Origin: Trypanosoma brucei
Lineage: Eukaryota
Direction: 5' to 3'
DNA: 64,000 nt
Assembly (NCBI GenBank): GCA_000002445.1
Contig: CP000067.1
Span: forward strand, 1,440,001 to 1,504,000
Under the pieces are notes generated by a model, which was not told where the DNA came from, did no database searches, and worked only from the letters and a program-made list of their open reading frames with translations. The translations under genes were made by a program, and so were the position numbers. This document shows, one piece after another, positions 16,393 through 60,010 of the stretch; the stretch's first letter is position 1; the number at the start of each line of letters is the position of its first letter.

Positions 16393-18429
16393 TTAAACTG
16401 CAGCAGAGGCAATATGGGCAAGTAAAGTGCTTCCTCCGACTATGCCATCTGCATGAACGCAAAACTTCACCTCTCCGTCACATGATGCCTTCACAACATG
16501 CTCCATTTTCATCGCCTCAAGTATAAGTATTGCCTGACCCTGCCGCACAAGCGTACCATCGGCAACGAGCAGCTTTGTGACCTTCCCAGGCATAGGGCTG
16601 AGCACGGACGCGGAGCCGTTGGCCTGAGCAGAAGTACTCCCAAAGTCTGTGGCCAGAGGTTGCAGGGCCAACGTGTAGAAACCCTGCGGCAGTGCTACAG
16701 TTACCTCGCTGTCGGTGACAAATGACGTGAAACCAAACCGTGTTTCTCCGTCCACCGTAACCCTAATGAAGGTAGAAGAATCCGGCATGTTGGTCGTGCT
16801 CTCAACATAGACTGTCACAGAACTGCTGTCAAAGTCGCAGGTGAAACACATCTTTGTGGAGACAGTGACACGAACGACAACAGGGTTTCCACCCACAGTA
16901 AAGCAGACACCCTGAAATATCTGGCGGTTCGGCCAAAACAACGTAGACGCGCCTCTTTGCGAGCAGAGATACGACACAGCCGCTAGTGCCAAAACATTAT
17001 TTGGGATTTCCCTTGGTTGGAGCAAATTAACGCTGTTATCTTCAATAAACCTAGTTGTCACGCCCCCCTCGACGAAGCCGGGGTTCGAGAGGCAGCGCTG
17101 AAGAAAGTCAATATTTGTCTCCACACCCACAATGTGATAAGAAGCCAGTGCCGTCCGCCGACCCTCGAGGGCGGCGGCGCGGTTGTCACCCCACACAACC
17201 AATTTTGCGATCATAGGATCGTAGTGAACTAACACGTCGTCACCGGCACGGAAACCCGTGTCCAAGTGCACCTTTACAGTACCTCGGTTGCCTTGGGGAG
17301 GCTCTTTAAGGTAACGTAGCCGGCCACCCACGGGAAGGAACCCATTCCTCGGCGATTCGGCGTAAATACGAGCCTCGACGCTGGCTCCGCTCATAGAAAT
17401 GTCCTCCTGACGGAATCCCAGAGGAAGGCCCATTGCCGTTTGCAACTGCAGCCGCACGAGATCCAATGGCCTCCCCCTCACCTGACACACCTGCTCCGTC
17501 ACCGGGTGTTCCACCTGAAGGCGAGTATTCATCTCCATGAAGAAAAATTCGTCTTTCTCAGTGTCAAATATGAACTCCACCGTACCGGCTCCGACGTATC
17601 CGACAGCCCTTGCTGCCGTCAAAGCTACGTCGCCGATTCGACGGCGCATGTCCACGCTGAGACCTGGCGCCGGGGCCTCTTCAATAACCTTCTGGTGGCG
17701 CCTTCGGACGCTGCAATCTCTCTCAAAGAAGAAAACACCATTGTCAAAACTATCGAAAAAAATTTGGCATTCAATGTGGCGGGGGTGCATTACGTATCAT
17801 TCCAAAATAACGCGATCATCCTTAAAGAAGTTAATGGCCTCACGCTTGGCGCTCTCAAGCATGAGGTGGAACTCAGTCTCTTCCATCACAATCTTCATCC
17901 CCTTTCCGCCACCGCCGGAAACAGCCTTGATCAGGACCGGAAAGCCAATAGTTTTGGCCTCATGTAACAGCCGATCGGGGTTTTGATCTTCTCCGTAGTA
18001 GCCAGGCACGATGGGCACACCAGCCGCTTCCACGATGCGCTTGCCCTCACTCTTGGAGCCCATTGACAACATGGCGGCCGGCGGTGGTCCTACAAACTTC
18101 AGCCCCGCTGCCAAAACCGCCGGAGCGAACTCAGCGTTTTCGGAAAGAAATCCGTAACCCGGGTGGGCAACGGCAGCTTGCAGTTTTTTCGCTGCGCATA
18201 TGATGCGGTCGCCTCGCAGATAGGACGTGGACGCTGGGGGTGGGCCCAAGACGAATGCCTCATCGGCCTCCACCACGTGCTTCGCGTTGTGTTCACCCTC
18301 ACAACAAACGGCTACCGTACGGATGTTCATTTCGCGACAGGTACGGAATACTCTGCACGCAATCTCTCCATGGTTGGCGACCAGGACTTTTTTAAAGTCT
18401 CCATGGTGGAACACGTTGTATCGGAGCAT
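16393..18429 (-). CDS. 3-methylcrotonyl-CoA carboxylase alpha subunit (biotin carboxylase plus biotinyl domain), interrupted by an in-frame TGA at 17797-17799. This is either a pseudogene or a sequence error.
   Basis: ORFs 17797-18612 and 16393-17790 are in the same frame (…DDRVILE*YVMHPRHIE…). The N-terminal part has KKVLVANRGEIACRV and the ATP-grasp motifs. The stop falls where other biotin carboxylases have Lys (human LIEKFVDTPRH), and ERDCSVRRRHQKVIEEAPAPG follows. The C-terminus has the biotinyl motif EAMKME. The probable start is the Met at 18429 (MLRYNVFHHGDFKK). Confidence 0.85.
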
Positions 18430-18620
18430 CCCCAGAAGAGTGATAACGACCAGAACAAGTGAATGCAATGTGGGGGATAGAAAAAAGTACAGAACAGCAC
18501 ACGAAGAGAACCCCCCTTGAGCCCAACTATCCCGATGATGCTTCAAGCGGAGTGGTTCACACCACTCGTCTTGTTGCAGAAGTTGGCTGTTTCCTTCCTC
18601 GGCCACATTCATTTCACTCC

Positions 18621-41306: not shown

Positions 41307-42526
41307 AAACTTATTGGAAATACTTTATTGTAGCAAACATTAATTTTTTTCTGGAAATATCTTAATGTAGTGGAATATGCATTTTTATGGAAAGATCTTA
41401 TTATACGAAACCGTATCTTTGTTGAATTATCTTGGATAAATTTACATTCATCTTGGAAATATTTTATACAATTCTTAAATGTGCGTTTGTATTTCAACGC
41501 TTTTTGCAAACATGTGGAAATTTTGAGAGATCTTTTTTGTTGTTGTACAAATTTGATGTTTGAATGTAAAGTGATATGTTGATGGAGTGTCAAAAGTGGG
41601 TGCCATTAGGATTTTTACTATTATGGTTTATTCAATTAATTTTATGTTTACCTTTGAAAATGTAAATATATGCAAATCTTCTCTAGTGTTGTGGCCGGGG
41701 AGTATAATGTAGTATGGTAACGGTTTACGAATGAGAAATGAGTGCTATTCTGAAATTTTCTGTTTCGGTTTATTTGGTGTATCGTATGGATGTTAGTCAA
41801 GGTTATAAAAGTAATGGTAAGAGTGGTTGGGGTGAGGATTAGGATGTTGGTATATTTGAATAACAAGGTCTTCCAAAGGAGGAAGAGAGATAGACAAGGC
41901 AGTGAAGGGCTGCAGAGGTGTTGTGGCATGCATGGAAATGATATAGATCTCTAAGGGAGTATCAGGTATGATTTTACTCGGGAAGGGGTTGCTGCTCATA
42001 CTTGTGATTATATATTTCCTGAAGCGGTCAAATGTTTCACAACTTCCATTAGAATAAAGTTTAGGAGAAGCAATAGGATGAGGGAAGCCCCCGCTGAATT
42101 GTTTGGCGGATATACAGTTTGATGAGTGGAAGGTTCGTTGTAGAAGCACGCGTGCACGTCTCGCCCAATTGGTGAGAGAGCAGTAATGGCCGGATGCATT
42201 TGCCGTGAGTAACAACCCCAACAATGGATACAAAGGAGTTATTGTTCATCATCGAGGTGTGACAACAGTAGTGGTGCATATATTTGTCGGCCCCTCGGAT
42301 ATGGAAAAGGGATCAAACGGTGCCGCTGGCATTGGAGGTTTTGTTGGTAATTCCTTAGAAATATCTTGCTGAAATTTGTTGAAGTTATTGAGACAACTAT
42401 CTTTTCTATGTTACCCTACTATTTCATGTATTGCTTACTGGTAACAACATAAAGTCCAATTTTTATCAACAGGGAAGTCAAGGACACCAAGGCAACGCAG
42501 CAACGTGGAAAAAGCTGGAGGAACTA

Positions 42527-44053
42527 ATGGAAAGTCGACCCGATACCAAAGGAATGTGCCACGCGACAGTGGCAGCAACTGTTCCAGTATTATTCATGAC
42601 GCTGATGAGGTGCGGCATGGCGCAAACAGTAACGGAACCGTCTTCGGACAAAGTAACAAACCTCTGTACAGAGGCCAAGTATACGGAATATTTGGCGAGT
42701 CGAATCGTAGCGGTAGCAGAGAGGCAGGAGCGCGAAATATCCGACATGCAAATTTATTCAGAGGCATGGAATCTCCTTGCCGCCAGCACAAACCAAACAG
42801 ACAAGCGTGCCGCGACATATGCCCTTGCTACGTACATGTCCACCGCGGCGGAAACAGCAAGGCGGGCACACGCTGGGAAATACAAAGCAGCAGTGGCAAC
42901 TGCGAAGTTGCTACACAGGAGGTCGGCGCTAACGCGTACGTTGCTAACGATGAGAATCCGGGGAAAGACAATAGTTGGAATAAGCAAAGAGGCCAACGGC
43001 ATAGGAATATGCCCTGGTGAAGCAACACCAACATTAAGCGGCGACAGTAGTTGCGCGCACCGAACCAATGACAGCAACCAACCAGAAGGTATTGCTGTGA
43101 ACTTGAAGGCAGCGACGCACATAAAATTGCTAAATAGCAGTGCACTAAGACCTCGGGGGTTAACCCATCTAGTTGAGATAAAAGAAACGAAGTGGCCAGC
43201 AAGCAGAGAAGCATTAGTCGAGAGGTGCGGGGGCTTGTTGGGAGGTGACCATTATGTTAAATTCGAAGCATCAACCACAGGAGAAGACAGCAAAATCATA
43301 GTAGAGCCGATTAAGATATTTGAGGGTGACGATGCGGAGAAAAACTGCGCTGTCGTACAGAAAGAATCTATGAAATCAGAAAAGGACAATGATCTACTGA
43401 TCAACAAAATATGCACCTACATAACAATACTCGACCCGCAGATTATAACCATATCCAGTTTGACGCCTGCCATGTTAGCAAACACGAGCACAGTCCAAAT
43501 GGCGTTCAAAAGCTTCGTTCATGCAGCAACCGGTAAAGCACCTAGCGACGGCGAAATCGAGTTGCAACTTAAGAGCCTTTACGGTGGGGACAAGCAAAAC
43601 TTCACCAGAGACTTCGTAAAAATTCTGTGGACGAAGAACGTGACATACCACACGGGCGCAGGATTCAAAACTGAGACGCTCCTTGATGCGGTTAGAAACA
43701 AAAACGCACAGAGGGCTCTAATCTATCTGGAAGATCAAAGACCAGCAGAGGAGTCAAAACAGACACAAACGGACGAGAGTGAAATCAACGGCCCGGTCTG
43801 CGGAGGTGAGGGCCAAGAGGAGTGCAAATTGGATGAAAAGAAAGACCCGGAGAAACCGAACGGAACTCAAATGCGGAAATGGCCTAAAGCACTCCAGTGG
43901 ATGATCACACGACAAGGAGGAAATTGCAAAACAATACAGCAAGAAGATTGTAAAGAAGACTGTACATGGGATGAGGGAGCTTGTGACGGCGCAGTTGGCA
44001 TTTCTGCTTCGATGAATATTTCTCTGTTCATGGCATTTTTGCTTCTAGCATAA
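42527..44053 (+). CDS. VSG-like gene, copy B', an exact duplicate of copy B
   Basis: The protein is identical to that of 39780-41306. It is part of a 2,747-bp tandem duplication. Confidence 0.8.
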   Translation: MESRPDTKGMCHATVAATVPVLFMTLMRCGMAQTVTEPSSDKVTNLCTEAKYTEYLASRIVAVAERQEREISDMQIYSEAWNLLAASTNQTDKRAATYALATYMSTAAETARRAHAGKYKAAVATAKLLHRRSALTRTLLTMRIRGKTIVGISKEANGIGICPGEATPTLSGDSSCAHRTNDSNQPEGIAVNLKAATHIKLLNSSALRPRGLTHLVEIKETKWPASREALVERCGGLLGGDHYVKFEASTTGEDSKIIVEPIKIFEGDDAEKNCAVVQKESMKSEKDNDLLINKICTYITILDPQIITISSLTPAMLANTSTVQMAFKSFVHAATGKAPSDGEIELQLKSLYGGDKQNFTRDFVKILWTKNVTYHTGAGFKTETLLDAVRNKNAQRALIYLEDQRPAEESKQTQTDESEINGPVCGGEGQEECKLDEKKDPEKPNGTQMRKWPKALQWMITRQGGNCKTIQQEDCKEDCTWDEGACDGAVGISASMNISLFMAFLLLA

Positions 44054-45238
44054 AAACTTATTGGAAATACTTTATTGTAGCAAACATTAATTTTTTTCTG
44101 GAAATATCTTAATGTAGTGGAATATGCATTTTTATGGAAAGATCTTATTATACGAAACCGTATCTTTGTTGAATTATCTTGGATAAATTTACATTCATCT
44201 TGGAAATATTTTATACAATTCTTAAATGTGCGTTTGTATTTCAACGCTTTTTGCAAACATGTGGAAATTTTGAGAGATCTTTTTTGTTGTTGTACAAATT
44301 TGATGTTTGAATGTAAAGTGATATGTTGATGGAGTGTCAAAAGTGGGTGCCATTAGGATTTTTACTATTATGGTTTATTCAATTAATTTTATGTTTACCT
44401 TTGAAAATGTAAATATATGCAAATCTTCTCCGGTGTTGTGGCCGGGGAGTATAATGTAGTATGGTAACGGTTTACGAATGAGAAATGAGTGCTATTCTGA
44501 AATTTTCTGTTTCGGTTTATTTGGTGTATCGTATGGATGTTAGTCAAGGTTATAAAAGTAATGGTAAGAGTGGTTGGAGTGACGATTAGGATGTTGGTAC
44601 ATTTGAATAACAAGGTCTTCCAAGGGAGGAAGAGATATGTATAAAGTACTGAAGGGCTGCAGAGGTGTTGTGTTAGGCATGATTGTGCACGGGAAGGAGT
44701 TGCTGCCGAAGCTTCTGATATACATGTGTTTCCAGAAACGATCAAATGCTGCGGAGCTTACGTGGGAAGAAAGTTTCGGAAGAGTTATGGGATGAGGGAA
44801 ATTCCCACTGCATTGTTTGAGCAGATTCACAACATGATAAGTGGAAGGTTGGTTGGAGAAGTGCGCAGGTACGCCACACCCAGTTGGCAAGAGATTGCAA
44901 TAGTCGGGTGCATGCCGGGAGTGATGACCCCACTGATAGTCAGGTCGCTAATAACGCTGAGGTTTGGAAAAAGCACACCTGAATTGATTTATCGGTGTAT
45001 CGAAGATCGAAAACATGATTAAGGCTCCCCAGTTACTGCATTCCCTCAAGGGGTTGCCGTTAAAAATATTTTTGTGCAAACTGTTTAAGTTATTATTGGG
45101 ACAACCGCTCTCTATTGCGGAACCACAAATTTCATCTATGACATACCTATAAATAAAAAGCCAAGTTCCAATCATCATCAACAACGAAGATAAAGGCACA
45201 AAGGCAACGAAACACATTACACGGAGGGAAAGGAGCCG

Positions 45239-46768
45239 ATGCAAGTTCAACGCACTACCAAAGAAGTGTTGCACAAAGCTGTTGCAGCAGCCGTGCCCGT
45301 GTTATTCATGACGCTGATGAGGTGCGGCATGGCGCAAACAGTAACGGAACCGTCTTCGGACAAAGTAACAAACCTCTGTACAGAGGCCAAGTATACAGCC
45401 CATCTGGCAGATCACATCGTAGCGGCGGCAGAAGAGCCGGAGCGCGAAATATCCGACATGCAAATTTATGCAGAGGCATGGAATCTCCTTGCAGCCAGCA
45501 CAAACCAAACAGACAAGCGTGCCGCGACATATGCCCTTGCCACGTACATGTCCACTGCGGCGGCAAAAGCAAAGCAGCTGCAAAACGGGAAATACAAAGC
45601 AGCAGTCTTGGCCGCTACCTACCTGCAAAGGAGATCAGCGCTGACACGAACATTGCAAGCTATGCGTGTAAAGGGACAGTCAGGAGCGGGACAAGTCACT
45701 AACCGACAAGGCGTCATCTCATCATGTTCACACAAGGAAACACCGACGTTAAGCGACGAAGGGGATTGCGGGCGACAAGGCAGTGATGCCAACCATCCAG
45801 AATCAATTGCCGTAAATTTAAGGACAGCGACTCACCTCAAACTGTTAGACAGCAGCAGGCTAAGACCGCTAGCGTTAAATCACTTAGCCGAAGTAGAAGG
45901 AACAGCGCCACCAGCAAAAACGGAAGTACAAGCCGAAGGCTGCAAGGCTGTGATAAGCATTGGCTATTATGCTAAATTCACAGCATCGACAAAAGAAAGT
46001 GACGACAACAGTGAAGTCAAAGCCATTAAGATATTCGCGGGTGACAATGCAAGTACAAATTGCGCTCTTCTGCACAACGCCGAAAGGAAATCAGAAAAGG
46101 ATAACGACCTACTGATCAACAAAATATGCAACTACATAAACAAACCTGATCCTCAGATAATAACCATATCCAATTTGACGCCTGCCATGTTAGCAAACAC
46201 GAGCACAGTCCAAATGGCGTTCAAAAGCTTCGTTCATGCAGCAACCGGTAAAGCACCTAGCGACGGCGAAATCGAAAACCAGCTTAAGAGCCTTTACGGA
46301 GGGGATGAGGTGACATTTACCAATGACTTCATAAAAATTCTGTGGACGAAGAACGTGACGTACCACACTGGCTCAGGATTCGTAACTGAGACATTTCTTG
46401 ATGCAGCTAAAAACGAAAACGCGCACAAGGTGCTCATCTATCTAAAAGGTCAAAGAGCGGCAGCACAGGCAAAACAACCAAGGACAAACGAGAGTGAAAT
46501 CAACGGCCCGGTCTGCGGAGGTGAGGGCCAAGAGGAGTGCAAATTGGATGAAAAGAAAGACCCGGAGAAACCGAACGGAACTCAAATGCGGAAATGGCCT
46601 AAAGCACTCCAGTGGATGATCACACGACAAGGAGGAAATTGCAAAACAATACAGCAAGAAGATTGTAAAGAAGACTGTACATGGGATGAGGGAGCTTGTG
46701 ACGGCGCAGTTGGCATTTCTGCTTCGATGAATATTTCTCTGTTCATGGCATTTTTGCTTCTAGCATAA
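45239..46768 (+). CDS. VSG-like gene, copy C, mosaic relative of copies A and B
   Basis: The 509-aa ORF shares N-terminal and C-terminal blocks with copy A and internal blocks with copy B, for example LTPAMLANTSTVQMAFKSFVHAATGKAPSDGEIE. Its 5' flank is homologous to that of copy A. Confidence 0.8.
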   Translation: MQVQRTTKEVLHKAVAAAVPVLFMTLMRCGMAQTVTEPSSDKVTNLCTEAKYTAHLADHIVAAAEEPEREISDMQIYAEAWNLLAASTNQTDKRAATYALATYMSTAAAKAKQLQNGKYKAAVLAATYLQRRSALTRTLQAMRVKGQSGAGQVTNRQGVISSCSHKETPTLSDEGDCGRQGSDANHPESIAVNLRTATHLKLLDSSRLRPLALNHLAEVEGTAPPAKTEVQAEGCKAVISIGYYAKFTASTKESDDNSEVKAIKIFAGDNASTNCALLHNAERKSEKDNDLLINKICNYINKPDPQIITISNLTPAMLANTSTVQMAFKSFVHAATGKAPSDGEIENQLKSLYGGDEVTFTNDFIKILWTKNVTYHTGSGFVTETFLDAAKNENAHKVLIYLKGQRAAAQAKQPRTNESEINGPVCGGEGQEECKLDEKKDPEKPNGTQMRKWPKALQWMITRQGGNCKTIQQEDCKEDCTWDEGACDGAVGISASMNISLFMAFLLLA

Positions 46769-47519
46769 AAACTTATTGGAAATACTTTATTGTAGCAAAC
46801 ATTAATTTTTTTCTGGAAATATCTTAATGTAGTGGAATATGCATTTTTATGGAAAGATCTTATTATACGAAACCGTATCTTTGTTGAATTATCTTGGATA
46901 AATTTACATTCATCTTGGAAATATTTTATACAATTCTTAAATGTGCGTTTGTATTTCAACGCTTTTTGCAAACATGTGGAAATTTTGAGAGATCTTTTTT
47001 GTTGTTGTACAAATTTGATGTTTGAATGTAAAGTGATATGTTGGTGGAATGTCGAAAATGGTTGCTATTTAGAATATTTTTGCTATTATGGTTTATTCGA
47101 AGAAATTTATGTTTACCTTTGAAGATGTGAAAATGTTTAAATGTTTTCAAATGTTTTTGACTTGTGGGTATAACGTGGTAAAGTGATAGGGGTGTGAAAA
47201 ATGAGTGTGATTATGAAAACTTGCCATTTTGGTTTATTTTTTTGTAATAGATATTAAGAGTAGTTTAAGGTTATGATATTAATAGCAGTATAGTAATAGT
47301 GTGTGTGCCATATAAGTGCACATACTAACATTATGGTAAGAGTGGTGGTGCAGAACGACTGGAGACAAAATAGAAGCAGTTAAGCTGATGCCAAGGGCAC
47401 AGTGGGAGTTAGCAAGTGAGTGGGAGAGGAAGAGGACGAGGAGGATATTATTAAAACAAAAGCAGAAACACAGGTAGATGGAGAGAAAAGGTAATGAAAT
47501 ATGCGCAGTTTTTTTCATT

Positions 47520-49880
47520 GTACATTTATCCTGCTCGTGCTGCGGTAGACTAGCTACTGCCCCTGTGGCTCTGCAAATTAGCAGGGGATGTTTAGCGCAA
47601 CCGCAATTTCATCTTCACTTGATCCAATGATACCTTGAAACTGATTGAGTATTCTGTAGATTTAGCTTCACGGGTACGTTTACGCATGGCTCTTGCAGTG
47701 CCAACCCCTAAAGACTTCGCTGCCGCAGAGTGGTGGTCAGTGGAATCCAACTCCGTTGGCGATCGGTGCCTCTTCACGGCTCAAGTGGGCCCAGATTTTT
47801 TCTCTAAGATTGGGGGGGGGGAGATGGTCTCTCTAGCTTGAAGAGCTCCTTCAGGAAGCTGGCTAGTTGTGTGCTGAAGAACACTTCCCCGTTCTTCAGG
47901 GTTTCTAGACCATGCTTTTCCCTTTAGCACTTGCAAGCTTGGGCATTCAAAGAGGTGCGCCGCAGCCTCGTTACACTCAACCTTCAGCAAGTAATGCTCA
48001 TTCTCCTTCCTCAGTTGGCCCTGCTTCGCCTGTATGTGCATCGTCAGGAACTTCTTTAGTGTGCAATTCATTGGGCAGTATGGGCACTGGAGTGATCTTT
48101 TCAGGAGAGGTGTCACCGCTACCGTGCCGTCCTTTAGTTTTCGTTTCACTGTCGTGGCGTGCGCGTATGCCAAACCAGTGAGCACCACTGCTTGTACACA
48201 CTGCTGTTTCCACCGCACACATTGTCCATTCCCTCTTTGCCTTCTGTGTGGCGGACTACCCGAAGACGCTTAGGCGGTCTTTCCCCATTGTCCCTTCCTG
48301 CTGACTCCAATGACTCACTCACCTCACTCTGTGCCTGAGCCTCTGCTCTCACTACCTTTCGCTTCGGCTTCACGCGTGGCTGAGGACGCAATGACTCGTC
48401 GTGACCCAGGTGCTTGGTCGGTATGCGTTGCGGTAACCATCTGTAATGATACTGCTTTCTACAAATGGAACACGCCACTGTAACTGACTGCTTCGCCACG
48501 TCCGAGTCTTCAGAGTTCGTGTTCGAGGTTGGTTCGTACTTGTGCCTGGTGGGCCATGTCTTGCTTTTGAGGACGCGTTGGCACCTGTAGCATACAAATT
48601 CCCTTTTATCCTGCTCCTCCTGCTCTGCCTCGCCATCACTACCGGACACGTCTTGTGGCTTCATAGCGCCGCGCGTTAACTGCTTTTCCGTGTGCTTCTG
48701 CAGCCACGCGTATACAGTGTACTTAATTGCGCACCAGCGGCACTTGAACGCTTTGCCATCATCGGCCCCATAATCCTCCCTAGCCCTTTTCGGACGCTCC
48801 TCCACGGCTGCCACTATATCTGAAAGTTGCTGTGCCATATGCTTCACGAGCAGCCCACGCCGCTCAAAGACATCGCACACATGTGACATCTGTACCCATT
48901 CTTATGCGTCTGCGCCGCACGCTTAGCTTTGTTGGTCAGAGCTAATGCACAATCCCTCTCCAGACCATGAATCTTCAGTAGGTGCACCACGCCAGCCTGT
49001 TGCCGCGCGCAAACCACGTTGCACAATGAGCAAATGATCGGGTCGATCAGCCTGGTTGCTATCCCAGGATCTGGTGCGTTCGCATTGTCCGCTGCTGACT
49101 CCGCCTCCGGGCGCTCTTCTGCTGTGTCGCTGCGTGGTTCCTGTGTGTCGCACCGTATGCATCCAAGCTGGTCCGTCTTGCGTGTGAGCGCCCTGTGGAG
49201 CCGTCCGAAATGCTTCGAGGTGCCTGTTCCGAACTGCGCCAGCACCGACTCGCCCAGACGCTCCAGCCTTGTGTGCTTCGGTGCGGCCCGAACGTAGTCG
49301 AGTAGCGCACTCCGATGCGTACGCTGCATGCGGCCCTTCTTGAAGGCCTTGTACATCGCATTCCAGACCTGTCACCACACACCCGTCGCTATGTCAGTGA
49401 TCCACGCGGGATACAACTACGGCTTTGCGTTTCCCTGCTCAGCTGCCTTGTCAGCTGCTTCATTTCGTGATGTTGGTAGCCAGCAACGCTAAAGCAAGCC
49501 GCCTCTCCAGGCGTCATTCTTGTCTCGCTCAACAGACAAAAGGCGATCCGCTCATCAACAAGGGTTTTGTGGAGTGCTAATCTCTTTCCTTGAGTTAGCC
49601 CGGCGCAGTTCCACTGCATCCCGCACAACGACGGGCCGGGATTCTCTTCCACATCACCGGACAGCAGCATCTTAGTGCGGATGATACTGCTGATGGCACG
49701 CTGGCACGTGCCCAGGGACCGACAAATGAAAAACGGTGTCCCAGCAAGACGCTGCTGATCCCTGTGCTGTATGATGCCGTAGCCGGAGCACAGCAGTGTT
49801 CCCCATGAGAAGAACGCTGCTGGCTCTTGGCTTCCCCCGATGATACGGGGTACTTGACCCTGGCACCACGTTGAGGTGGC
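47520..49880 (-). mobile_element. Internally deleted ingi-type non-LTR retrotransposon remnant (DIRE/ingi-like): 5' end with 2A peptide and start of the AP-endonuclease domain, fused to a region of multiple C2H2 zinc fingers
   Basis: The minus-strand sequence from ~49873 reads GGTGCCAGGGTCAAGTACCCCGTATCATCGGGGGAAGCCAAGAGCCAGCAGCG…, which is ingi/RIME-like 5' sequence. ORF 49389-49886 encodes …LLSGDVEENPGP (2A), then QWNCAGL…FCLLSETR (the L1-type endonuclease N-terminal motifs), then a stop. ORFs 48844-49356, 48146-48889 and 47781-48218 carry repeated C2H2 fingers (CSLCNVVCARQQAGVVHLLKIH, FKCRWCAIKYTVYAWLQKH, LQCPYCPMNCTLKKFLTMH). No reverse-transcriptase domain is present. The 3' boundary is uncertain. 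Confidence 0.65.
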
Positions 49881-50217
49881 CGGCATCTCTAGGGGTACTA
49901 TTACTAGTTAACATATTTATGACAGTTTAATAAGATGATTCATTTTCATACTCTATTTGCCCATTATTTTGAAAAAATGTGCCACTTTCATAACAAAATG
50001 TTATACGTAAAATTCTAAATAATTTCTGTAGTTTATGCATTTTAATTAAATGCTTTTCAAATATATCATATTTTACCAAATATAGATAACTCTCTGTTAA
50101 TGGCAAATTTTGTGAAATAGAGCAAAATTCCTTAAAATAGAAATCCCACAAAATCAGCAGCGATTATAGCAAAATTTTATTTACAAAGAAAATTGAATTT
50201 TTGCAAGCATTATTTTC

Positions 50218-51567
50218 TCATTTACAATTCTGTCCCTTTGAGCACGCATCGTGATTGGCATGACTGGTGCAATTTACAACTTTGGCTTTACTATTTCTGC
50301 CTTTCTTTTCTCCTTTTTTGTCTGTTGCTTTTTTTTCCTTAGTTAAATCTTCTTCTGTTCTCTTTCTTTGTTGCTGTGCATGATAAAAACTGATTGCTGT
50401 TCCTGCTTCTTTTTTTGTTGCTAATTCCTCAAGGGTTCTGGTTGCCATCTTTTTAGAAGCTCTATACTTTAAAGGTTGCTTGTTCATCTTTGTGATAAAC
50501 TCGTCTGTAAATTTTTCATGGGTTTCACTGTAGGCCTTTGTTATGTATTCGACTAACTCGCTGTTTTACGTGCCATCGCTGAAGTCTTTGATGTTACTGA
50601 ACGCCGTATTGGCGTTACGGATTGCTGCTAATACGCTGGCGTCCGCTGCCAGTGCTCCTGGATTGATGTCGGCTAGTTTGGGCAGCGTCCGTGTCGCTTC
50701 CAGGTCCGCCATGCAGATCGTGTTTGGAAAATTTTTTGTTGCGTCTTTTTTGTCGGCGGTGGCTGTAAGCTTTTGGGCGCACCCCTTTTGGCGGTCGTCG
50801 TCTGTGAAGATGCTGGTCTCGGTTGGCTGGGGCTTGTCTTGCTCAGTCAGTTTAAACGTATTGCCGCCTCCTATGTTGCCGGTGCATGACGCCACCGTAG
50901 CTGCTGGCGAATCGTTTGTTGCACAGTTGTTGCCAGCTGCTGTTACTCTGACGGATGCCGTTTTTAGCAGTTTGTGAAGGTCACTTACTTTTTTCATTCT
51001 CAGTTTTTTCAGAGCCGTCGTCGCAAACGTTTTTGGCTTGGGTTTTACAGTGCTGACTTTTCAGGCTTCTTCGTCGCACGTACTTTATCGTTCGTTGGTT
51101 GCGCCATTCGTTATCGTGTAGCCGGTGTTCGCTGGAGCTGTGAAAGGGTTGCTGTTTGCTGCGTAAGTTGGTGTAGCCATTTTATACGCTGTTTGCAAAG
51201 CCTCCGCTCGCTGTGCGAACGCCTGCGCCGCCTGTCTGAGCTTAGCGGCTTTTTCCTTTCCTTTTTTCTCTGTTTCCGCGGCGACTGCCGTCGCTGATGC
51301 AGAAAGTGCTGCTAGTAAGGCGCTTCTTTCGTGTTTTATTTCTGTTTGTGCCTCTAAGTTCCAAATTAGTGCCTGTTTGTCGATTTGCCGATAAGCACTT
51401 TCCGCCTCAACTGCTCTTGCTTCGTAGGTATGTGCCACTGCTGCGGCGAATACCGCCTCCTGGCATGCTGTCTGAAGTTTGTCTTGGGCTGCGTCCCCCG
51501 TTGTTGAGACACTGAAATCTGCTATTGCCATTATGACAAAGACGAGGCAAATTCCGGTCCGCTGCAT
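50218..51567 (-). pseudogene. VSG pseudogene, fragmented into at least three frames and truncated, with no GPI signal
   Basis: ORF 51085-51567 holds a signal peptide and the A-type N-terminal start (MQRTGICLVFVIMAIADFSVS…ACQEAVFAAAVAHTYEARA). ORF 50566-50997 is a mid-domain. ORF 50218-50487 is a Lys/Glu/Cys-rich C-terminal-domain-like piece ending …CSKGQNCK without a hydrophobic tail. Confidence 0.65.
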
Positions 51568-52479
51568 TTTCGTTTAATTACTTGTGCTTTGCTTTGTTTA
51601 GGGATCTTTGTTGGGAAATGGCTAGGTCGATTTTAAGTTGCTACTTATGTTGGTTTTTTAACTATAGCATTTCTCGGCTGACCACTATGGTCTTTGTGCA
51701 TCGGCTGCGCTTCTCCTTTGCCGCAGACAGCCTCTAAACCGTTATGTCGTGTTCGGATTTTTCGGTTTTCTGTTGTCCGTCGGCCCTGACTACGCCTTAT
51801 TTTTCGTTGCGGCCAGTTACAACCTATCATGCATATAGGTCCATGTTTGAAATATATTATTTTTTATATAACTAAAAGGATAATTTCAAAAATCCTCCAT
51901 TTCAACTCCTTTTTGGAATTTAACCACTTCTTATCCCAAATAAATTTTATTTATTCTATTAATCAGTATTGTCACATGACCTTAGTTTCTAACGTAGGGT
52001 CCCTCCATCAAGAAAAAAAAACCACCGTCTCTATTACCATTTTTACAGTATTATATCTTCATTTTTGAGTACTATAGGGTCATAACGAGCTACTACTTCT
52101 CATAATGACGCATCATTTCCTTTTGTGGTCCGCTGCGTTGTCGCATATTCTGTCATTACATACTGTTATTTTCGTTCCATTTTTTACTTTTATTTCTACT
52201 CCTTTCACTTAAGATAAGGTGGAGGGTCCATTTTCCTTGTACACTGCATTCTGGTTTATACATGATACCCCTTCATCGCCTTCTTGTGTATGATAATGAC
52301 TATTATCATATCTGTGTCTTAAGCTGCGTACATTCGATCTCCTTTTTCCTCTCTATGTTTCTGCTTCCCTTTAATAATAGTATTACTCGTGCCCTCACAC
52401 ACTCTCATACTAACTTACTTACTCTCATTTCGTCCTTGTCATTTCTGTAAGTGCTTGTGTTTTGTTCATCAATTTGGTC

Positions 52480-52620
52480 TTCACCACGACTCTTAGAATA
52501 ATATTAGTATACGCACACTCACAACACATTCTTATTATTATTGTTATTATTACCATCATCATAAAACAATATTAATAAAATAAACAAATAAACTAAATGA
52601 GAATATCAATAATTTTTCAT
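52480..52620 (-). repeat. 70-bp-repeat-type element (VSG upstream recombination repeat), minus orientation
   Basis: The minus strand reads …ATGATGATGGTAATAATAACAATAATAATAAGAATGTGTTGTGAGTGTGCGTATACTAATATTATTCTAAGAG…. This matches the TRR-run plus GTGTTGTGAGTGTG core of T. brucei 70-bp repeats. It lies ~0.9 kb upstream of the VSG pseudogene at 51567. Confidence 0.7.
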
Positions 52621-52812
52621 ACCCTATCACTCTACTGCTTTACACCGGTAAGTCGCTTTCATATAAAATTTGCTAAATTTTTACGTTTTCAAAATATTTG
52701 AATGTTTGAACAGTTTACAAATTTTAATCGAAAAGAGTTATAATATATCAAATCTTATCAAATTCTCTCACAATAGAAAGTTTCATAATTTTCATAAAAT
52801 TGAGCATAATCT

Positions 52813-54327
52813 TTAGAAATTTAATAATGCGAGGGAGAATGCAAGCAAAAGAGGGGCCTTGTTAATGACAAACGAATTGCTCCCTGTGGTGTTTGTTTTC
52901 CCATCTTTCCCTGTTGTTGTGGTTACTTTAACTTTGCACTTTTCTTCCTTGAATACGCACCTATCTTCCTCTTTGCACTCCTTTTGTGCCTTGTCCTTGC
53001 ATATTTCTTCTGATTCTTTGGAAGCAACTGGTGCACCGGCTGGTTGTTTCTTTGATGTTTCAATTTCTTTTTTGTTCCGCTGACCACCGCTATGGCTAGT
53101 CGCTGCGTTGCGTTCGCTAGCTGTTGCTAGTGCAGTTAGTGCTTTGTCTTCGCTTTTGTCATTCAGTTTGACGGTTATCTGTCGTGAATCTAGTGGGGTA
53201 TCGAAAATCTCTTTGAATTTGCCGTCGTCTGCACCATATGCTGATTCGATAAAATCGTTTAAATCCTTTGCTTCGACTGAGTCCCACGGCTTACTTACTG
53301 CTTGGTATGCGGGTAGGCAGTTTCTTAGTATATTTGTTACTAGTTTGTCGCCTTTTAGTGCTTTGCCACTTAAGGGTGGCACCTTGCCCCCGTCTGTTTG
53401 TATAGTTTTGACGGCTAGGCATACTGCATAACGGAGTTTGATGTCTGCCGTTGCTCCCTCCTCGCCAGCTGCAGTCGCATCTTCGCAACCTTGGTCAGGG
53501 TCATGATTTTTGTAGAACGCTGCTGTGCTTGTGCTGTAAGAGTAGTCTGCGCTGTTACGCGCATAGGTTACAGCTTCGCTGCCGGAAACGGTGCAGGTGC
53601 TTAGTACACTCGAGAACGTTCTTGTTTTTGCTACTGCGGATGCTGTGCAGCCGTTGAAGCCGGTAATAGTTATTTTGTCTTTGAATATTTTTGTTGCTAG
53701 ATCTGTGTCTGGCGTAATCTTAATTTCTGTTAACTTTGCCGCGTCGATCGCTGTGTGTGCGCTGCTGAATTTTCCCCAGCTGTCAATTGCTGTGCAGCGT
53801 CCGTTGCCGATTGTCTCCCGAGTTAACTCTAGGTAAATGTTGCTACTGTCTCCTGCTCGGCTGTAGCCGGTGGCATCTACGGCTGCTTTTGTTTTCAGTA
53901 GTTTCTGTGCGTACTTGAGCTTTCCTACATGTTCGTCGATTAGCCCCATTGCTGTCGTTGCTGTATCGTCGGCCTTATCGGCCTGCTGTTGTACCGACTC
54001 CGCTTTTTGCTCAAGTTTGGCTGCTAAAGCGGAGTAAAGGCACCTGTCGTTGGGTTGAGTTGCCATGGTTGCAGCCAGCCTATACTTCCTCTCTAGCTTC
54101 AGTAGGTCCTGTCTCTGTCTTCGTCGCCTGGTGATTCCTGCAGCGATTTCTTTTCGCAGCTCAGACAAATAAAACTCCTCCTTGCAGACGTTTGTTATTT
54201 GTGCCGGGCCGGTGTCAGCATCGGTTATGGCCGCTGTTGATGCTGACTTTGTGGCGTACACTAGCGTTAGTAGTGCTGCAACGGCCAACAGCTGCTCCGA
54301 GCTTCTTGAGCCTTTTCTGCCGGTCAT
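52813..54327 (-). CDS. Variant surface glycoprotein (intact, canonical type)
   Basis: The 504-aa ORF has a signal peptide (LLAVAALLTLVYATKSASTAA) and a Cys-rich C-terminal domain (…EEICKDKAQKECKEEDRCVFKEEKCKVK…). The GPI signal is canonical: TNTTGSNSFVINKAPLLLAFSLALLNF. The 3' UTR contains TGATATATTATAACTC, which matches the VSG 16-mer TGATATATTTTAACAC at 13 of 16 positions. Confidence 0.85.
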   Translation of the reverse strand: MTGRKGSRSSEQLLAVAALLTLVYATKSASTAAITDADTGPAQITNVCKEEFYLSELRKEIAAGITRRRRQRQDLLKLERKYRLAATMATQPNDRCLYSALAAKLEQKAESVQQQADKADDTATTAMGLIDEHVGKLKYAQKLLKTKAAVDATGYSRAGDSSNIYLELTRETIGNGRCTAIDSWGKFSSAHTAIDAAKLTEIKITPDTDLATKIFKDKITITGFNGCTASAVAKTRTFSSVLSTCTVSGSEAVTYARNSADYSYSTSTAAFYKNHDPDQGCEDATAAGEEGATADIKLRYAVCLAVKTIQTDGGKVPPLSGKALKGDKLVTNILRNCLPAYQAVSKPWDSVEAKDLNDFIESAYGADDGKFKEIFDTPLDSRQITVKLNDKSEDKALTALATASERNAATSHSGGQRNKKEIETSKKQPAGAPVASKESEEICKDKAQKECKEEDRCVFKEEKCKVKVTTTTGKDGKTNTTGSNSFVINKAPLLLAFSLALLNF

Positions 54328-56049
54328 CAGTTAACCTTCACCTGGATGGTAAATGAATTAATAAATGAACTATGAATTTAGTGCAAGTGTCGATGTTTTC
54401 GCCGCATTTTCCGTAAAAAAAAACAGATTTCCACTGTGAACCAAAATGTAAGGCAGACATCCAACGCTTTTTGGAGGCACCTGATATGTTCGTGGAGCCG
54501 CTTCTTCAGGTCTTGTTTGCTGGCTGAGTGTGTCGCTTCCTGGATACTGTATCTTGAATATCTGACTCAATCTATTGTCGGGAAAACTGACCTCTACCTG
54601 CCTTGTGCACCTTTGACTTTTGATTGTCATCTTTGATTTCAGGTTCGTGTATTGTCGTAGAAATTTGTATGTTTTTTGTCTAACTTTACTAGCTACTGCA
54701 ATTGCCTTGCTTTCAAAGAAGAAATTTTCGATAGAAAATTTTGTTAATCTTTGATCCCCAGTTGTTTCAAATTTTCTCTGATTCTGTTTAACCTTCCTTT
54801 CCTCGGTCACCTATTTCCTTTACTCAAGAATTCAGTCTTTACGATTTGAGAGCTACGTTGAGGGTGTCTCCATAGTTGAGAATTCTGTTAAAAACACGCA
54901 GTTTAATAGCAATTTTTCTACTTTCCATTGCAATGTGTTTCACTCCGCATCTATATCTATTGCTTCTATTGCTAAGTCTAATTCTTTTCTGCTATAAAAC
55001 CTGATTCTTATATATAAACTTGGTTATTAAAATCTTATGGTTTCTACTGTACTTTATTTTCCTGTAAATTTGGCTTGTTACTTTCCAATTCATTTACGAT
55101 GTGACGTCTGCGCATAGTCCCCGTCCGCGGTCTAGGCTAGGATTCCTTCGAACAACGACTGTTTCGAGGCTGATTGTGCAAGTGGCATTATAGTCAATTT
55201 TACAACTACCTTGGCTTCTTCGGAACCTTTATTCTAGTTATTAAATGGGGTTAATTTTTGAACTTAATATTTAGCGCACAATCATTTTATGCAGTTTAAT
55301 TTTTGACCTGTTCCAGCATGGAAATAGTGTAGTTTTTATACCAACTATATCTACTTCACAACCCTTTCCAGAAGATTCATACATGTGCTAATTTAATCAG
55401 TCTCCGCGTCTTTATTCTACTTTTTTGTTTTTAAACGGTAATCGATTATAATTACTGGTTTCAACATTCTTCTTTACGATAGAATTATATTGTTTTCCAC
55501 AAATTTTATTGTGTACTAGTATATCTGATGAAAACATTTCTTCAAATTTACCTGACACTTACCTATTCTCTTTCTCCTTTTCCATTTATTGATTTTTCTT
55601 CACAACCGTACATTAGGATCTGTCATCAGCTTAACTTTCCATTCAACACAATTTTTGCAGCAACATCTATCCACTTCTGTGTGAAATGAGGACCATCATA
55701 GGTTTATTCTCATGTATTATCTTCTTAGTTCTGGACTCTCATGTCTACTGTCTTTTTATTTAGTTTTTTCTTTCCTTGTCTTCCGTTTTCTTTCACACAC
55801 CTTGGGATAACATCACCGCTCCTTATGGCATGTATAAATTCCACTCTGTCGCTCCTTAATCTCGTTGTGTATGATGATGCTCATCATCATTTTTGTGCAT
55901 GTAACTGTACATATTCTATCTCCTTCATCATATCCCTTTTTGTATTTCGGCGTTTCACCTAATAATATTACACTTTCTTCCTCACTGTATCACCACCTTA
56001 CTGCCATTACACCATGGGACGTTGTTTCAAGTGCATCTTATAGAGTGTC

Positions 56050-56260
56050 ATTTAGCCTACACTACCAGCATTATTATAATATTCGTATATACACACTCAC
56101 AACACACTCCTATTATTATTATTATATTAGTAAATATGCACAATAACAGCACAATGCCATCATTAATATCATTACTGTTATCATTGTAACCCTAAATTGC
56201 TCTTAATATACATAAAATAAACAAAATAAACCTAATGAGAATATCACCCACTTTTAACAC
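56050..56260 (-). repeat. 70-bp-repeat-type element, minus orientation, ~1.8 kb upstream of the VSG at 52813-54327
   Basis: The minus strand contains …AATAATAATAATAGGAGTGTGTTGTGAGTGTGTATATACGAATATTATAATAATGCTGG…, a strong match to the 70-bp consensus core. A downstream A-rich block (ataaaataaacaaaataaac…tgagaatatca) is shared with the element at 52480-52620. Confidence 0.75.
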
Positions 56261-56382
56261 CTTATCACCTTATAACTTAGCAGTCATATACAACATTAAT
56301 ACCAAAAGCTGAAATATATATATATTTTTTACAAATTCTCTAGAAAAAACTCCATAAATTTTACAAAATGAAGCAAAAATAG

Positions 56383-58052
56383 TTAGAGGTAAAATTCTAC
56401 CAAACTCATAAAAGCAGCAGCCATACTCAGACCAAATTTCTTATTGACAAGAAAACCGCTATTTCGGCACTTTTCCTTTTCTGTATCCTTATCATCTTCA
56501 CCATCTTTACCCTTCCTCCATGCGCAATTTTGTTTTTCGCCTGTTTTGTCAGCTTCACAATTAGACATATTTGGTGTGTTGCACACACAGGTTTATCAGC
56601 TGCGTGTTCTGCATCTCTTGTTCCTACTGCTGTGTTTTCTTTTCCTGTCTCTTTAGGTTTGCATTCCTTTTGGGTTTTGTCATATTCGCAGTGTGTTTTC
56701 GGACACTCTGCTAGGGTATTGTTCTTTTTGGGGCAGCTCTTGCCGTTGATATTTGTGTCTTTGCCTTTCGGTGCTTGTACAGCAGTTCCTGCCACGGGCG
56801 TTTGTGCAGGCAAGGCGGCTGCCATCGCCAGACTGTAAAAAAAGTCGGTTTGTTTTTCTGTGAGTGCTATTTGCTGCGCAATTCGGTTAGCGGTTTCGAT
56901 TTTCCTTGCTTGGGATTCTAAATCTTATGCTGCTGTGTAAAGTCGCTGGATCCATGGGATGCCTGAAATCCCTTTTCCGGTGGTCTTTGCAAAAAAATTG
57001 TCATAGCTTACACACAGTTTTAAGGACTGGCCGTCGCAGGTTGCGACGTTTAGGCCTCCGAGGTAAACCAGTGTCTAGCTCGCTGACGTTTTTCTGCCTA
57101 GAGTCGACTCGAAGCTATGTATCGCGCCTGTAAAAGCGTTTGCGGTAAGCTTCGGCTTCGCTTGTTGCGGACATGTTGCCTTGAGGGTTGTCCAGTGGGT
57201 GTCCGGATTCGTGATGCTGACTTCCCAGTTCTGTTGCGTGTAGCCGGCCGGGCATTCGCTGGCGCCTGTGTCGGCGCCGTTGCAGAGGCAGAGAAAGTCG
57301 CCGATTATCGATCGGCCTGTTTTGGCCGCTGCACATGTTGTCGTCCAGCCTGCGGCCCCATCCAGTGTGTTTTTTGTGTCGACTTTTGTGCTTGTTCCAT
57401 CGCCCCCGTATAGGGCGGCGTTGAGTTCCTTTTGTATCTTTGCTGGCAGGGTGGTTGTCTCCTCTGTTTTTACCAGATTGTATTGATGCTGCAGTTCCTC
57501 TAATTTGGCGGCGTTTTGTTCTATGATCGAATGAAGAAAGCGTCTTTGTTGCTCATCCGGTATTTTTTTGTATTTGCTGTGCTCTTCTGTCCCAGTCTTT
57601 GCGTCTGCCGCCCTCTTGGCTGCCGACCACCAGTCTTGCCACTTGTCTCCCCAGTCTTTGCCATACGAAGACGATTCGTACACTGCCGGCATTTTTTCGC
57701 CTTGCTCTTTTGCTAGTTTTGTATCGAACAGCGCCAGCCAGTTGTCGTCGCTTGTTTTTAAATTGAGTTCAAGAATCGCTTGCAGCGAATTGCCTTTGTC
57801 TGCTGTGATCGACGCCGGGGCTTGCTGTGCTGACGCCATGGCCTGTAACCGACACATGATTCCATGGGCTTGAGCGTTGTCGTCCGCTGCGCTGCTCGCT
57901 GGCCGGATAGCATAAGTTAAGTAAGCTAGCACTGCTAGTACGCAAGTGTAAGCACGCACGGGGTGGTGTGGACCGTAAGCAACTAAGTATATTAGAAAAA
58001 GACAGAAACCTACTGGAAAAAAACGTTTTTGTACATAATTATGTAATACCAA
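56383..58052 (-). pseudogene. VSG pseudogene with frameshifts between the N-terminal domain and the C-terminal domain
   Basis: ORF 57075-58052 holds a signal peptide and N-terminal domain (…VLAVLAYLTYAIRPASSAADDNAQAHG…GDFLCLCNGADTGASECPAGY…). ORFs 56427-56825 and 56383-56586 give the Cys-rich C-terminal domain and a GPI signal (CRNSGFLVNKKFGLSMAAAFMSLVEFYL), each in a different frame. Confidence 0.7.
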
Positions 58053-59954: not shown

Positions 59955-60010
59955 CAACGAACTCCTATCATTATTATTATTATCACTGTATTAATGCCCT
60001 AATTAATATC
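59955..60010 (-). repeat. Partial, degenerate 70-bp-repeat-like element
   Basis: It has an (ATT)n run plus flanking similarity but lacks the GTGTTGTGAGTGTG core. Confidence 0.3.

What the first reader, a model, noticed from the sequence alone, without database searches (positions are those of the whole stretch)
49389..49886. Viral-type 2A 'ribosome-skipping' peptide (DVEENPGP) at the N-terminus of a retroelement ORF
The minus-strand ORF starting at the element's 5' end encodes …TKMLLSGDVEENPGP at 49632-49655. It is followed directly by the start of an L1-type AP-endonuclease domain (SLCGMQWNCAGL…FCLLSETR). D(V/I)ExNPGP is the canonical 2A motif. Functional 2A sequences have been reported at the N-terminus of trypanosomatid ingi/L1Tc ORFs. 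Here it sits in a remnant whose endonuclease is truncated by a stop ~60 codons later.
Basis: partly seen in the sequence, partly recalled or inferred. Interest (0 to 1): 0.55.

Follow-up and report, generated by a model that had tools for sequence, protein, structure and literature searches.

The report
Known ingi retrotransposon 2A peptide, dead copy
The 2A "ribosome-skipping" motif is real, but it is the already described and already tested 2A of the Trypanosoma brucei ingi retrotransposon, and here it sits in a 433-base 5' stump of ingi joined to the tail of an older, decayed retroelement, so it is ordinary.

Summary
ORF 49389-49886 (-) encodes 165 aa, with ...CQRAISSIIRTKMLLSGDVEENPGP. DVEENPGP lies at 49655-49632 and is the only such motif in the window (5e-5 expected by chance).

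Window 49894-49462 (-) is nt 1-433 of Tbingi. It is 94.5-96.5% identical to four T. brucei copies. The 25-aa 2A tract is identical to several annotated Tbingi ORFs. In longer copies it is in frame with a Pfam Exo_endo_phos domain that starts 5 residues after the 2A proline.

Published work states that the ingi and L1Tc 2A sequences lie at this position and are active (Heras 2006 and Donnelly 2001, as cited in PMC3708506 and PMC5814959). Nothing here is new.

One correction. The endonuclease is not cut short by a point mutation. Tbingi homology stops at 49462, 56 codons after the 2A. There it joins the last 1.96 kb of a degenerate Tvingi-like (ingi6) TbDIRE, 49469-47509. That part is 74% nt identical to T. 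vivax Tvingi and ends at the same poly(A) terminus.

The ORF then runs 24 out-of-frame codons to its stop. In the syntenic loci of T. b. gambiense and T. b. equiperdum the DIRE continues through this point, so the join is a secondary rearrangement. The copy is dead.

The parts
49462..49894 (-). 5' fragment (nt 1-433) of a Tbingi (ingi4 subclade) non-LTR retrotransposon
   Evidence: blastn and MAFFT against four T. brucei ingi copies (L001-L004) give 94.5-96.5% identity. All four alignments start at 49894 and stop at 49462.
49818..49894 (-). Pr77 hallmark, the first 77 nt shared by ingi/L1Tc-clade elements. In the literature it is an internal promoter as DNA and an HDV-like ribozyme as RNA.
   Evidence: The 27-nt core GCCGGCCACCTCAACGTGGTGCCAGGG is matched exactly and only once in the window. 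The alignment shows window-specific changes: CCCTAGAG against CCCTGGCG, and GTCAAG against GTCCAG. The assigned function comes from PMC4035085 and PMC5814959. Rfam gave no hit.
49389..49886 (-). The 165-aa ORF of the finding. Codons 1-141 are Tbingi. Codons 142-165 are an out-of-frame reading of DIRE sequence.
49632..49706 (-). 2A tract CQRAISSIIRTKMLLSGDVEENPGP (residues 61-85). The predicted skip is between G84 (49637-49635) and P85 (49634-49632).
   Evidence: The tract is identical to P0001, P0002, P0005 and P0006 of T. brucei. The motif definition GD(V/I)ExNPGP is from PMC3708506.
49462..49619 (-). N-terminal ~52 residues of the AP-endonuclease domain (MQWNCAGL...LLSETR...YQHH). The remaining ~170 residues are absent.
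   Evidence: Pfam PF03372 position 1 aligns to the equivalent M in P0019, P0021 and P0003. The window ORF alone gives no Pfam hit.
49462..49469 (-). Rearrangement junction. CACGAAAT can be read as either parent: Tbingi CACGGAAT, Tvingi CACGTAAC, or gambiense DIRE CGCGCGAT.
   Evidence: Three-way comparisons.
47509..49469 (-). 3' third of a degenerate ingi6-subclade element (TbDIRE, Tvingi-like). It runs from the RNase H C-terminus (RNEAADKAAEQGNAKP) through the C2H2 zinc-finger region to the 3' end.
   Evidence: 63% aa identity over 492 aa to T. vivax P0035. 73.9% nt identity over 1999 nt to L005 6527-8516. In-frame stops at 49419-49417 and 49374-49372, plus at least two frameshifts. Subclade assignment follows PMC3820030.
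47509..47515 (-). A7 tail at the DIRE 3' terminus
   Evidence: It aligns with the Tvingi terminus ...GCACGAGCAG.TTAAA.G.ACAATGGAAAAAAAAA.

Best explanation
The motif is the native 2A-like StopGo (ribosome-skipping) peptide of the Trypanosoma brucei ingi (Tbingi) non-LTR retrotransposon. In an intact ingi, translation starts 9 nt into the element. The nascent chain ...IIRTKMLLSGDVEENPG sits in the ribosome exit tunnel. The Gly-Pro bond is then skipped, which releases an ~84-aa leader and lets the ribosome continue from Pro into the AP-endonuclease/RT/RNase H/zinc-finger polyprotein. That mechanism is established for ingi and L1Tc in the literature. It is inferred for this copy, because the 25-aa tract is identical to other Tbingi copies. 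This copy is a non-functional stump. Only nt 1-433 of Tbingi survive: the Pr77 hallmark, the leader, the 2A and ~52 aa of the endonuclease. They are joined at a short microhomology to the 3' 1.96 kb of an older degenerate ingi6-type DIRE. If translated, the ORF could yield only the 84-aa leader plus an 81-aa product, made of 57 ingi residues and 24 out-of-frame residues. The junction is a DNA-level rearrangement in the TREU927 lineage, not a retrotransposition product.
For: The motif is present, unique and far above chance. The 5' part is 94.5-96.5% identical to four Tbingi copies from nt 1 to nt 433. The 2A tract is identical to annotated T. brucei ingi ORFs and conserved in T. grayi, T. theileri and T. 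conorhini ingi. The 2A is in frame with Exo_endo_phos in longer copies. [quoted passage not shown] PMC5814959 says the same for L1Tc2A. The downstream part matches Tvingi at 63% aa and 74% nt through to the poly(A) end, and carries stops and frameshifts. In the syntenic loci of T. b. gambiense (L006) and T. b. equiperdum (L007) the DIRE continues in frame through the point equivalent to 49467. There is no target-site duplication around the composite. VSG 45239-46768 is 100% identical to a T. b. brucei TREU927 VSG.
Against: Skipping activity of this exact copy was not tested and cannot be tested here. My recollection that the variant SSIIRTKMLLSGDVEENPGP itself was listed or assayed (Donnelly 2001; Luke 2008) could not be checked, because the string is absent from the searchable library and Heras 2006 is not held. 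The history of the junction is not fully resolved. The flank 5' of the Tbingi stump is not DIRE sequence, which a simple deletion from the gambiense arrangement would predict. Instead it resembles the flank of another ingi copy. Microhomology at the join is between 2 and 8 nt, depending on the unknown parental DIRE sequence.
Confidence: 0.93

Rival explanations
1. The composite (Tbingi 5' end plus ingi6 DIRE 3' end) is a chimeric retrocopy. It would have been made by reverse-transcriptase template switching from a DIRE RNA to an ingi RNA, and could be a member of a non-autonomous family comparable to RIME or NARTc.
For: It has an authentic 5' terminus (Pr77), an authentic 3' terminus with an A-run, and a join at a short microhomology. 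PMC3820030 argues that the 5' signature alone may suffice for mobilisation.
Against: In gambiense and equiperdum the DIRE sits at the same syntenic position and continues through the junction. The 3' part was therefore already resident, not newly inserted. There is no TSD (TAGTAATAGTAC against CTGCGCATATTT). No annotated protein shares the post-junction tail.
Confidence: 0.04
2. The 5' piece is a RIME, the 500-bp non-autonomous deletion derivative of ingi, rather than a piece of ingi.
For: RIME shares the 5' end of ingi and is abundant in T. brucei (PMC3820030).
Against: Annotated RIME-type ORFs (P0009, P0011) break inside the 2A motif (SGDVE|LQKKKK) and continue into ingi 3'-end sequence. The window copy continues ~190 nt further into the endonuclease.
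Confidence: 0.01
3. The motif is a chance occurrence, or an endogenous viral fragment unrelated to the retroelement.
For: GDVEENPGP matches viral 2A C-termini. A limnipivirus sequence in PMC11512398 carries SGDVEENPGP.
Against: Chance expects 5e-5 matches per window. The motif is embedded in 433 nt of contiguous ~95% identity to Tbingi and is conserved at the same position across trypanosome ingi elements.
Confidence: 0.005
4. The 165-aa ORF is an expressed, domesticated small gene. Its 2A would release an 84-aa leader peptide with a function of its own.
For: The ORF is intact for 165 codons and lies behind a Pr77 promoter hallmark. The leader is conserved among ingi of several Trypanosoma species.
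Against: Conservation of the leader is explained by its overlap with Pr77 and by recent common descent of ingi copies. The C-terminal 24 codons are an accidental frame of DIRE sequence. The junction is absent from two sister subspecies. No gene with this product is on record. The Pr77 of this copy carries changes at nt 5 and 7.
Confidence: 0.02

Closest known systems
2A-like sequence of T. brucei ingi (Tbingi), described in Donnelly et al. 2001, Heras et al. 2006 and Odon et al. 2013 (PMC3708506)
   Same: It is the same element family, at the same position (residues 61-85 of the ORF, immediately before the AP endonuclease). The 25-aa sequence is identical to annotated T. brucei copies.
   Different: The peptide itself does not differ. 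This copy lacks everything downstream of endonuclease residue ~52, so the 2A has no functional polyprotein to release.
L1Tc2A of Trypanosoma cruzi L1Tc (Heras 2006; reviewed in PMC5814959)
   Same: It has the same location and the same presumed role: it separates an N-terminal leader from the APE-RT-RH-NAC polyprotein and tunes the amount of downstream product. It also has an LLLSGD(V/I)E.NPGP core.
   Different: L1Tc carries DIEQNPGP with a different upstream tract. It belongs to a different ingi subclade and a different species.
Viral 2A peptides (FMDV F2A, Thosea asigna virus T2A, porcine teschovirus P2A)
   Same: They share the C-terminal GD(V/I)ExNPGP motif. From my own knowledge, GDVEENPGP is identical to the last nine residues of T2A and P2A. 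They also share the mechanism of co-translational Gly-Pro bond skipping.
   Different: The upstream 10-15 residues are unrelated in sequence. The host here is a cellular retrotransposon, not an RNA virus polyprotein.
TbDIRE of the ingi6 subclade ('TbDIRE2', Bringaud et al.; PMC3820030)
   Same: The 3' 1.96 kb is Tvingi/Tcoingi-like and degenerate, and T. brucei is reported to hold only extinct copies of this subclade.
   Different: Only the last third is present in the window. Near-full-length and partial versions are present at the syntenic sites in equiperdum and gambiense respectively. The DIRE's own 2A is not in the window, and in equiperdum it has decayed to SVNVKEIPSL.
TbRIME
   Same: It is an internally deleted derivative that keeps the ingi 5' end.
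   Different: The RIME breakpoint lies inside the 2A, and its 3' half is ingi's own 3' end. Here the breakpoint is at nt 433 and the 3' partner belongs to a different subclade.

Membership tests
2A / 2A-like (StopGo) recoding peptides | C-terminal motif -GD(V/I)ExNPG|P- | tested here: met
   GDVEENPGP lies at 49658-49632. The motif is as given in PMC3708506.
2A / 2A-like (StopGo) recoding peptides | A suitable ~10-20-aa upstream tract. The motif alone is not sufficient. | tested here: met
   The upstream tract CQRAISSIIRTKMLLS is identical to that of other Tbingi copies, the family reported as active. This is an identity argument, not an activity test.
2A / 2A-like (StopGo) recoding peptides | Demonstrated co-translational separation of the upstream and downstream products | not testable with these tools
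   This needs an in vitro translation or cell reporter assay. The literature reports activity for Ingi and L1Tc 2A (PMC3708506).
2A / 2A-like (StopGo) recoding peptides | Lies in frame between two coding segments | tested here: met
   It is in frame with Exo_endo_phos in P0003, P0019 and P0021. In the window it is in frame with the first ~52 endonuclease residues.
Tbingi (ingi4 subclade) autonomous retrotransposon | The 76-79-nt 5' signature (Pr77 hallmark) at the element start | tested here: met
   49894-49818 aligns with four ingi copies, and the 27-nt core is exact.
Tbingi (ingi4 subclade) autonomous retrotransposon | A single long ORF encoding APE, RT, RNase H and C2H2 domains (~5.2 kb) | tested here: not met
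   Only nt 1-433 are present. There is no other Tbingi sequence in the window. It is a fragment, not a complete member.
Tbingi (ingi4 subclade) autonomous retrotransposon | Own 3' end with poly(A), and a 12-bp target-site duplication | tested here: not met
   The 3' end is that of a Tvingi-like element. The flanking 12-mers do not match.
Tbingi (ingi4 subclade) autonomous retrotransposon | Upstream insertion-site signature AxxxxxxxTxxxGTxGGxTxxx|xTxTxxTxxxxx (PMC3820030) | tested here: inconclusive
   6 of 10 specified positions match at the expected offset. The bona fide copy in L001 matches 8 of 10.
TbDIRE, ingi6 subclade (for the 3' part, 47509-49469) | Closest relatives are Tvingi/Tcoingi rather than Tbingi | tested here: met
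   Identity is 55-70% aa to T. vivax and T. congolense proteins, and no T. brucei protein is among the 65 hits. Against Tbingi it is only 24-35% aa.
TbDIRE, ingi6 subclade (for the 3' part, 47509-49469) | Degenerate coding capacity (stops and frameshifts) | tested here: met
   Two in-frame stops and at least two frameshifts in 1.96 kb.
TbRIME | 5' ~250 nt of ingi joined to the 3' ~250 nt of ingi | tested here: not met
   RIME-type ORFs break at SGDVE|. The window continues to nt 433 and joins non-ingi4 sequence.

The most novel reading that the evidence does not exclude
The most novel reading that the evidence does not exclude: the stump is still transcribed from its Pr77 and translated, and its intact 2A releases a discrete 84-aa ingi leader peptide. 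On this reading, the many 5' ingi remnants in T. brucei would form a dispersed source of a small protein, or of a translation-dependent regulatory signal at VSG-array boundaries. A weaker variant is that the Tbingi::DIRE join marks a recurrent microhomology-mediated breakpoint that shapes subtelomeric VSG arrays.
Probability: 0.05. Interest if true: 0.35.

Novelty: already known. Interest (0 to 1): 0.1.

Why it matters
It matters little beyond correct annotation. The ingi/L1Tc 2A was the first cellular 2A to be described and has been assayed. Finding it in a T. brucei ingi fragment is expected. What is useful locally is the exact anatomy. The locus is a 433-nt Tbingi 5' stump fused to the tail of an ingi6-type DIRE, at the convergent boundary between two VSG arrays in TREU927. 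Sister subspecies show the un-rearranged DIRE, and in gambiense a separate Tbingi insertion. This is a small, clean example of how retroelement remnants mark structural rearrangements in trypanosome VSG arrays.

Tried and rejected
- Rfam scan of 47000-50300 at E<=1, looking for an HDV-like ribozyme in Pr77: no hit.
- MFE folding of the first 80 nt in the window and in two ingi copies: z-scores of 0.14 to -0.78, which is uninformative. MFE folding cannot represent the HDV double pseudoknot. One copy (L002) pairs nt 1-7 with GCCAGGG. The window's G5A and C7A changes would break two of those pairs, but this is inference only.
- Exact-protein look-ups of the 165-aa ORF, the neighbouring VSG, CFAP43 and P0100: none on record. 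The window's own record could therefore not be fetched.
- TSD search around the composite: negative.
- Literature: Heras 2006 (PMC11136212) is not held. The peptide strings ...RTKML[LV]SGDVEENPGP are not in the searchable text. The claim that this exact variant was assayed therefore rests on my memory.
- A simple single-deletion model derived from the gambiense arrangement: weakened, because the flank 5' of the stump is not DIRE sequence.
- Pfam on the window ORF alone: no hit, because too little endonuclease remains.

Full report
**Observation**

The minus-strand ORF 49389..49886 exists as described. It starts with ATG and encodes 165 aa. It reads ...CQRAISSIIRTKMLLSGDVEENPGPSLCGMQWNCAGL...FCLLSETR..., with D78-P85 at 49655-49632.

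A six-frame scan of the 64-kb window finds exactly one D[VI]E.NPGP, and exactly one NPGP. About 5e-5 are expected from the window's composition.

**What the 5' part is**

A search of the large protein collection with the ORF returns T. brucei proteins (equiperdum, gambiense, and 927 'BES15S03c') at 90-95% identity. It also returns proteins named 'Tbingi protein' from T. grayi and T. theileri and 'Tcoingi protein' from T. conorhini.

I fetched four genomic ingi copies, L001-L004. All four align with window 49894-49462 at 94.5-96.5% nucleotide identity. The alignments start at the canonical element start (CCCTGGCG; CCCTAGAG in the window) and all end at window 49462. The window therefore holds nt 1-433 of a Tbingi element.

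This stretch includes the 77-nt Pr77 hallmark. Its 27-nt core is matched exactly and occurs only once in the window.

The 25-residue 2A tract is identical to that of P0001, P0002, P0005 and P0006. Of the 23 homologues that cover the site, 12 have exactly GDVEENPGP. The others carry close variants (GNVEENPGP, GDVEQNPGP) or clearly decayed ones (GDVEKNTGP, GNAEENPSP).

In longer copies the motif is in frame with the endonuclease. Pfam Exo_endo_phos position 1 aligns to the M of MQWN, five residues after the 2A proline.

**What is known**

Odon et al. [quoted passage not shown] They also state that these lie 40-80 aa from the N-terminus and that they were active in the GFP-2A-GUS assay. They cite Donnelly 2001 and Heras 2006.

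The review PMC5814959 says the same for L1Tc2A. It adds that the downstream product is made in lower amount.

The finding is therefore a re-discovery of a described and assayed element. From memory, the variant SSIIRTKMLLSGDVEENPGP is among the T. brucei sequences listed by the Ryan laboratory. I could not verify this in the held library.

**What truncates the ORF**

The truncation is not a point mutation. After 49462 there is no DNA similarity to Tbingi.

Reading frame 0 from 49467 gives RNEAADKAAEQGNAKP*LYPAWITDI.... This matches the C-terminus of the RNase H domain of T. vivax Tvingi, with 16 of 16 identical residues before the stop.

A conceptual translation of 49356-47781 is 63% identical over 492 aa to the T. 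vivax protein P0035. The 65 database hits are all T. vivax or T. congolense, and none is from T. brucei.

At the DNA level, window 49469-47509 aligns with the Tvingi locus L005 6527-8516 at 73.9% over 1999 nt. The alignment runs to the same 3' terminus and A-run. This part carries two in-frame stops (49419-49417 and 49374-49372) and at least two frameshifts.

Bringaud et al. (PMC3820030) place Tbingi in subclade ingi4 in their text, and Tvingi/Tcoingi in ingi6 in their abstract, discussion and figure legend. One sentence of their text lists Tvingi/Tcoingi under ingi1 instead. They report that T. brucei has only extinct ingi6 elements, the TbDIREs. The 3' 1.96 kb is therefore the tail of a TbDIRE.

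The 165-aa ORF is thus made of 141 Tbingi codons followed by 24 codons of DIRE sequence read in the wrong frame.

**Nature of the junction**

The eight bases CACGAAAT (49469-49462) resemble both parents: Tbingi CACGGAAT and Tvingi CACGTAAC.

A neighbouring VSG (45239-46768) is 100% identical to a T. b. brucei TREU927 VSG on a 1,590,432-bp record. Related VSGs led to syntenic loci in two sister subspecies.

- **T. b. gambiense (L006).** L006 1-11148 aligns with window 27035-38178 at 93%, and L006 11250-14649 aligns with window 46057-49463 at 88.6%.
- **T. b. equiperdum (L007).** L007 1-12023 aligns with window 27050-39048, and L007 9844-14220 aligns with window 45082-49468.

In both loci the DIRE continues in frame through the point equivalent to 49467, reading ...FVFSHCGVPRDEAAEKAVEQ.... 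In equiperdum it is nearly full length, with APE, RT and RNase H, and holds no Tbingi. In gambiense a Tbingi 3' end with A10 abuts it inside the RT region.

The Tbingi::DIRE join in the window is therefore a secondary DNA rearrangement in the TREU927 lineage. It is not a chimeric retrocopy. There is also no target-site duplication around the composite.

A single deletion from a gambiense-like arrangement does not fully explain it. The sequence 5' of the stump is not DIRE. It is instead 77% identical to the flank of another ingi copy in L001. The partner may therefore have come from another VSG-array segment.

T. brucei is known to repair breaks by microhomology-mediated joining. This is my own knowledge and was not tested here. 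It fits the short overlap, which is between 2 and 8 nt depending on the unknown parental DIRE sequence.

**RIME excluded**

Annotated RIME-type ORFs (P0009, P0011) break inside the motif (SGDVE|LQKKKK) and continue into ingi 3'-end sequence. The window copy runs 190 nt further into the endonuclease.

**Context**

The window spans a core-to-VSG-array transition. Minus-strand housekeeping genes lie at about 1877-26768 (kinases, PP4R3, a biotin carboxylase, CFAP43). Plus-strand VSG genes lie at 37030-46768. Minus-strand VSG genes or fragments lie at 50566-62767. The composite element sits in the convergent gap between the two VSG arrays. It is the only ingi-clade sequence in the window.

**Mechanism and verdict**

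Shown here:
- the identity, position and frame of the motif;
- the family it belongs to;
- the structure and boundaries of the remnant;
- the secondary nature of the junction.

Taken from the literature: ingi and L1Tc 2A peptides mediate Gly-Pro bond skipping.

Inferred: this copy's peptide would still skip if translated, giving an 84-aa leader and an 81-aa dead-end product, with no function for the element or the cell.

Novelty is nil (already known). Interest is low.

Noticed in passing
window 17797-17799 (-), between ORFs 17797..18612 and 16393..17790: A single in-frame stop interrupts a biotin carboxylase / ATP-grasp gene (Biotin_carb_N, CPSase_L_D2, Biotin_carb_C, Biotin_lipoyl). The sequence reads '...DDRVILE*YVMHPRHIECQ', with the stop at the position of the conserved Lys. 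It could be a pseudogene, a sequencing error or a read-through case.
   Followed up: partly
window 37030-46768 (+): There is a four-gene VSG array in the order A-B-B'-A'. B (39684-41306) and B' (42431-44053) are 99.9% identical and lie 2747 bp apart. A and A' are 87.5% identical at the nucleotide level. In the syntenic gambiense and equiperdum loci fetched here, a single VSG gene of this family aligns to all four window copies, and the gambiense locus has an assembly gap at that position.
   Followed up: partly
L006 16041-17942 compared with L007 15610: There is a Tbingi insertion polymorphism. T. b. gambiense has a Tbingi 3' end (A10) inserted in the RT region of the syntenic DIRE. T. b. equiperdum has the uninterrupted DIRE, that is, the empty site.
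   Followed up: partly
L007 ~17330-17390 (-): The 2A of the equiperdum ingi6-type DIRE has decayed to LLLLLSVNVKEIPSLMTRG (from ...LLLSGDVEENPGP..RG). One T. vivax Tvingi copy (L005 ~3367) has AGDIHCNPGP, with the key Glu replaced.
   Followed up: no
window 49895-49906 and 50171-50337; L001 2004-2172 and 2476-2484: The 5' flank of the window's Tbingi stump resembles the 5' flank of an unrelated ingi copy in T. b. equiperdum. The 9-mer TAGTAATAG lies directly next to the element start in both, and 170 nt at 77% identity lie ~300-450 nt upstream. This suggests a duplicated VSG-array segment that carried an ingi, or possibly 5' transduction.
   Followed up: partly
window 49894-49818 (-): The Pr77 hallmark of this copy has window-specific substitutions at nt 5 and 39 (G5A, C39A) and a C7A change that is also present in the gambiense copy L003. 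G5A and C7A fall in CCCTGGC, which can pair with GCCAGGG (nt 31-37), the presumed P1 helix of the HDV-like ribozyme. They may weaken the ribozyme or the promoter. Rfam found no ribozyme family here.
   Followed up: partly
proteins P0009 and P0011 (T. b. gambiense): The deletion breakpoint of RIME elements falls inside the 2A motif (SGDVE|LQKKKK). RIME ORFs therefore lose the NPGP and cannot skip.
   Followed up: no
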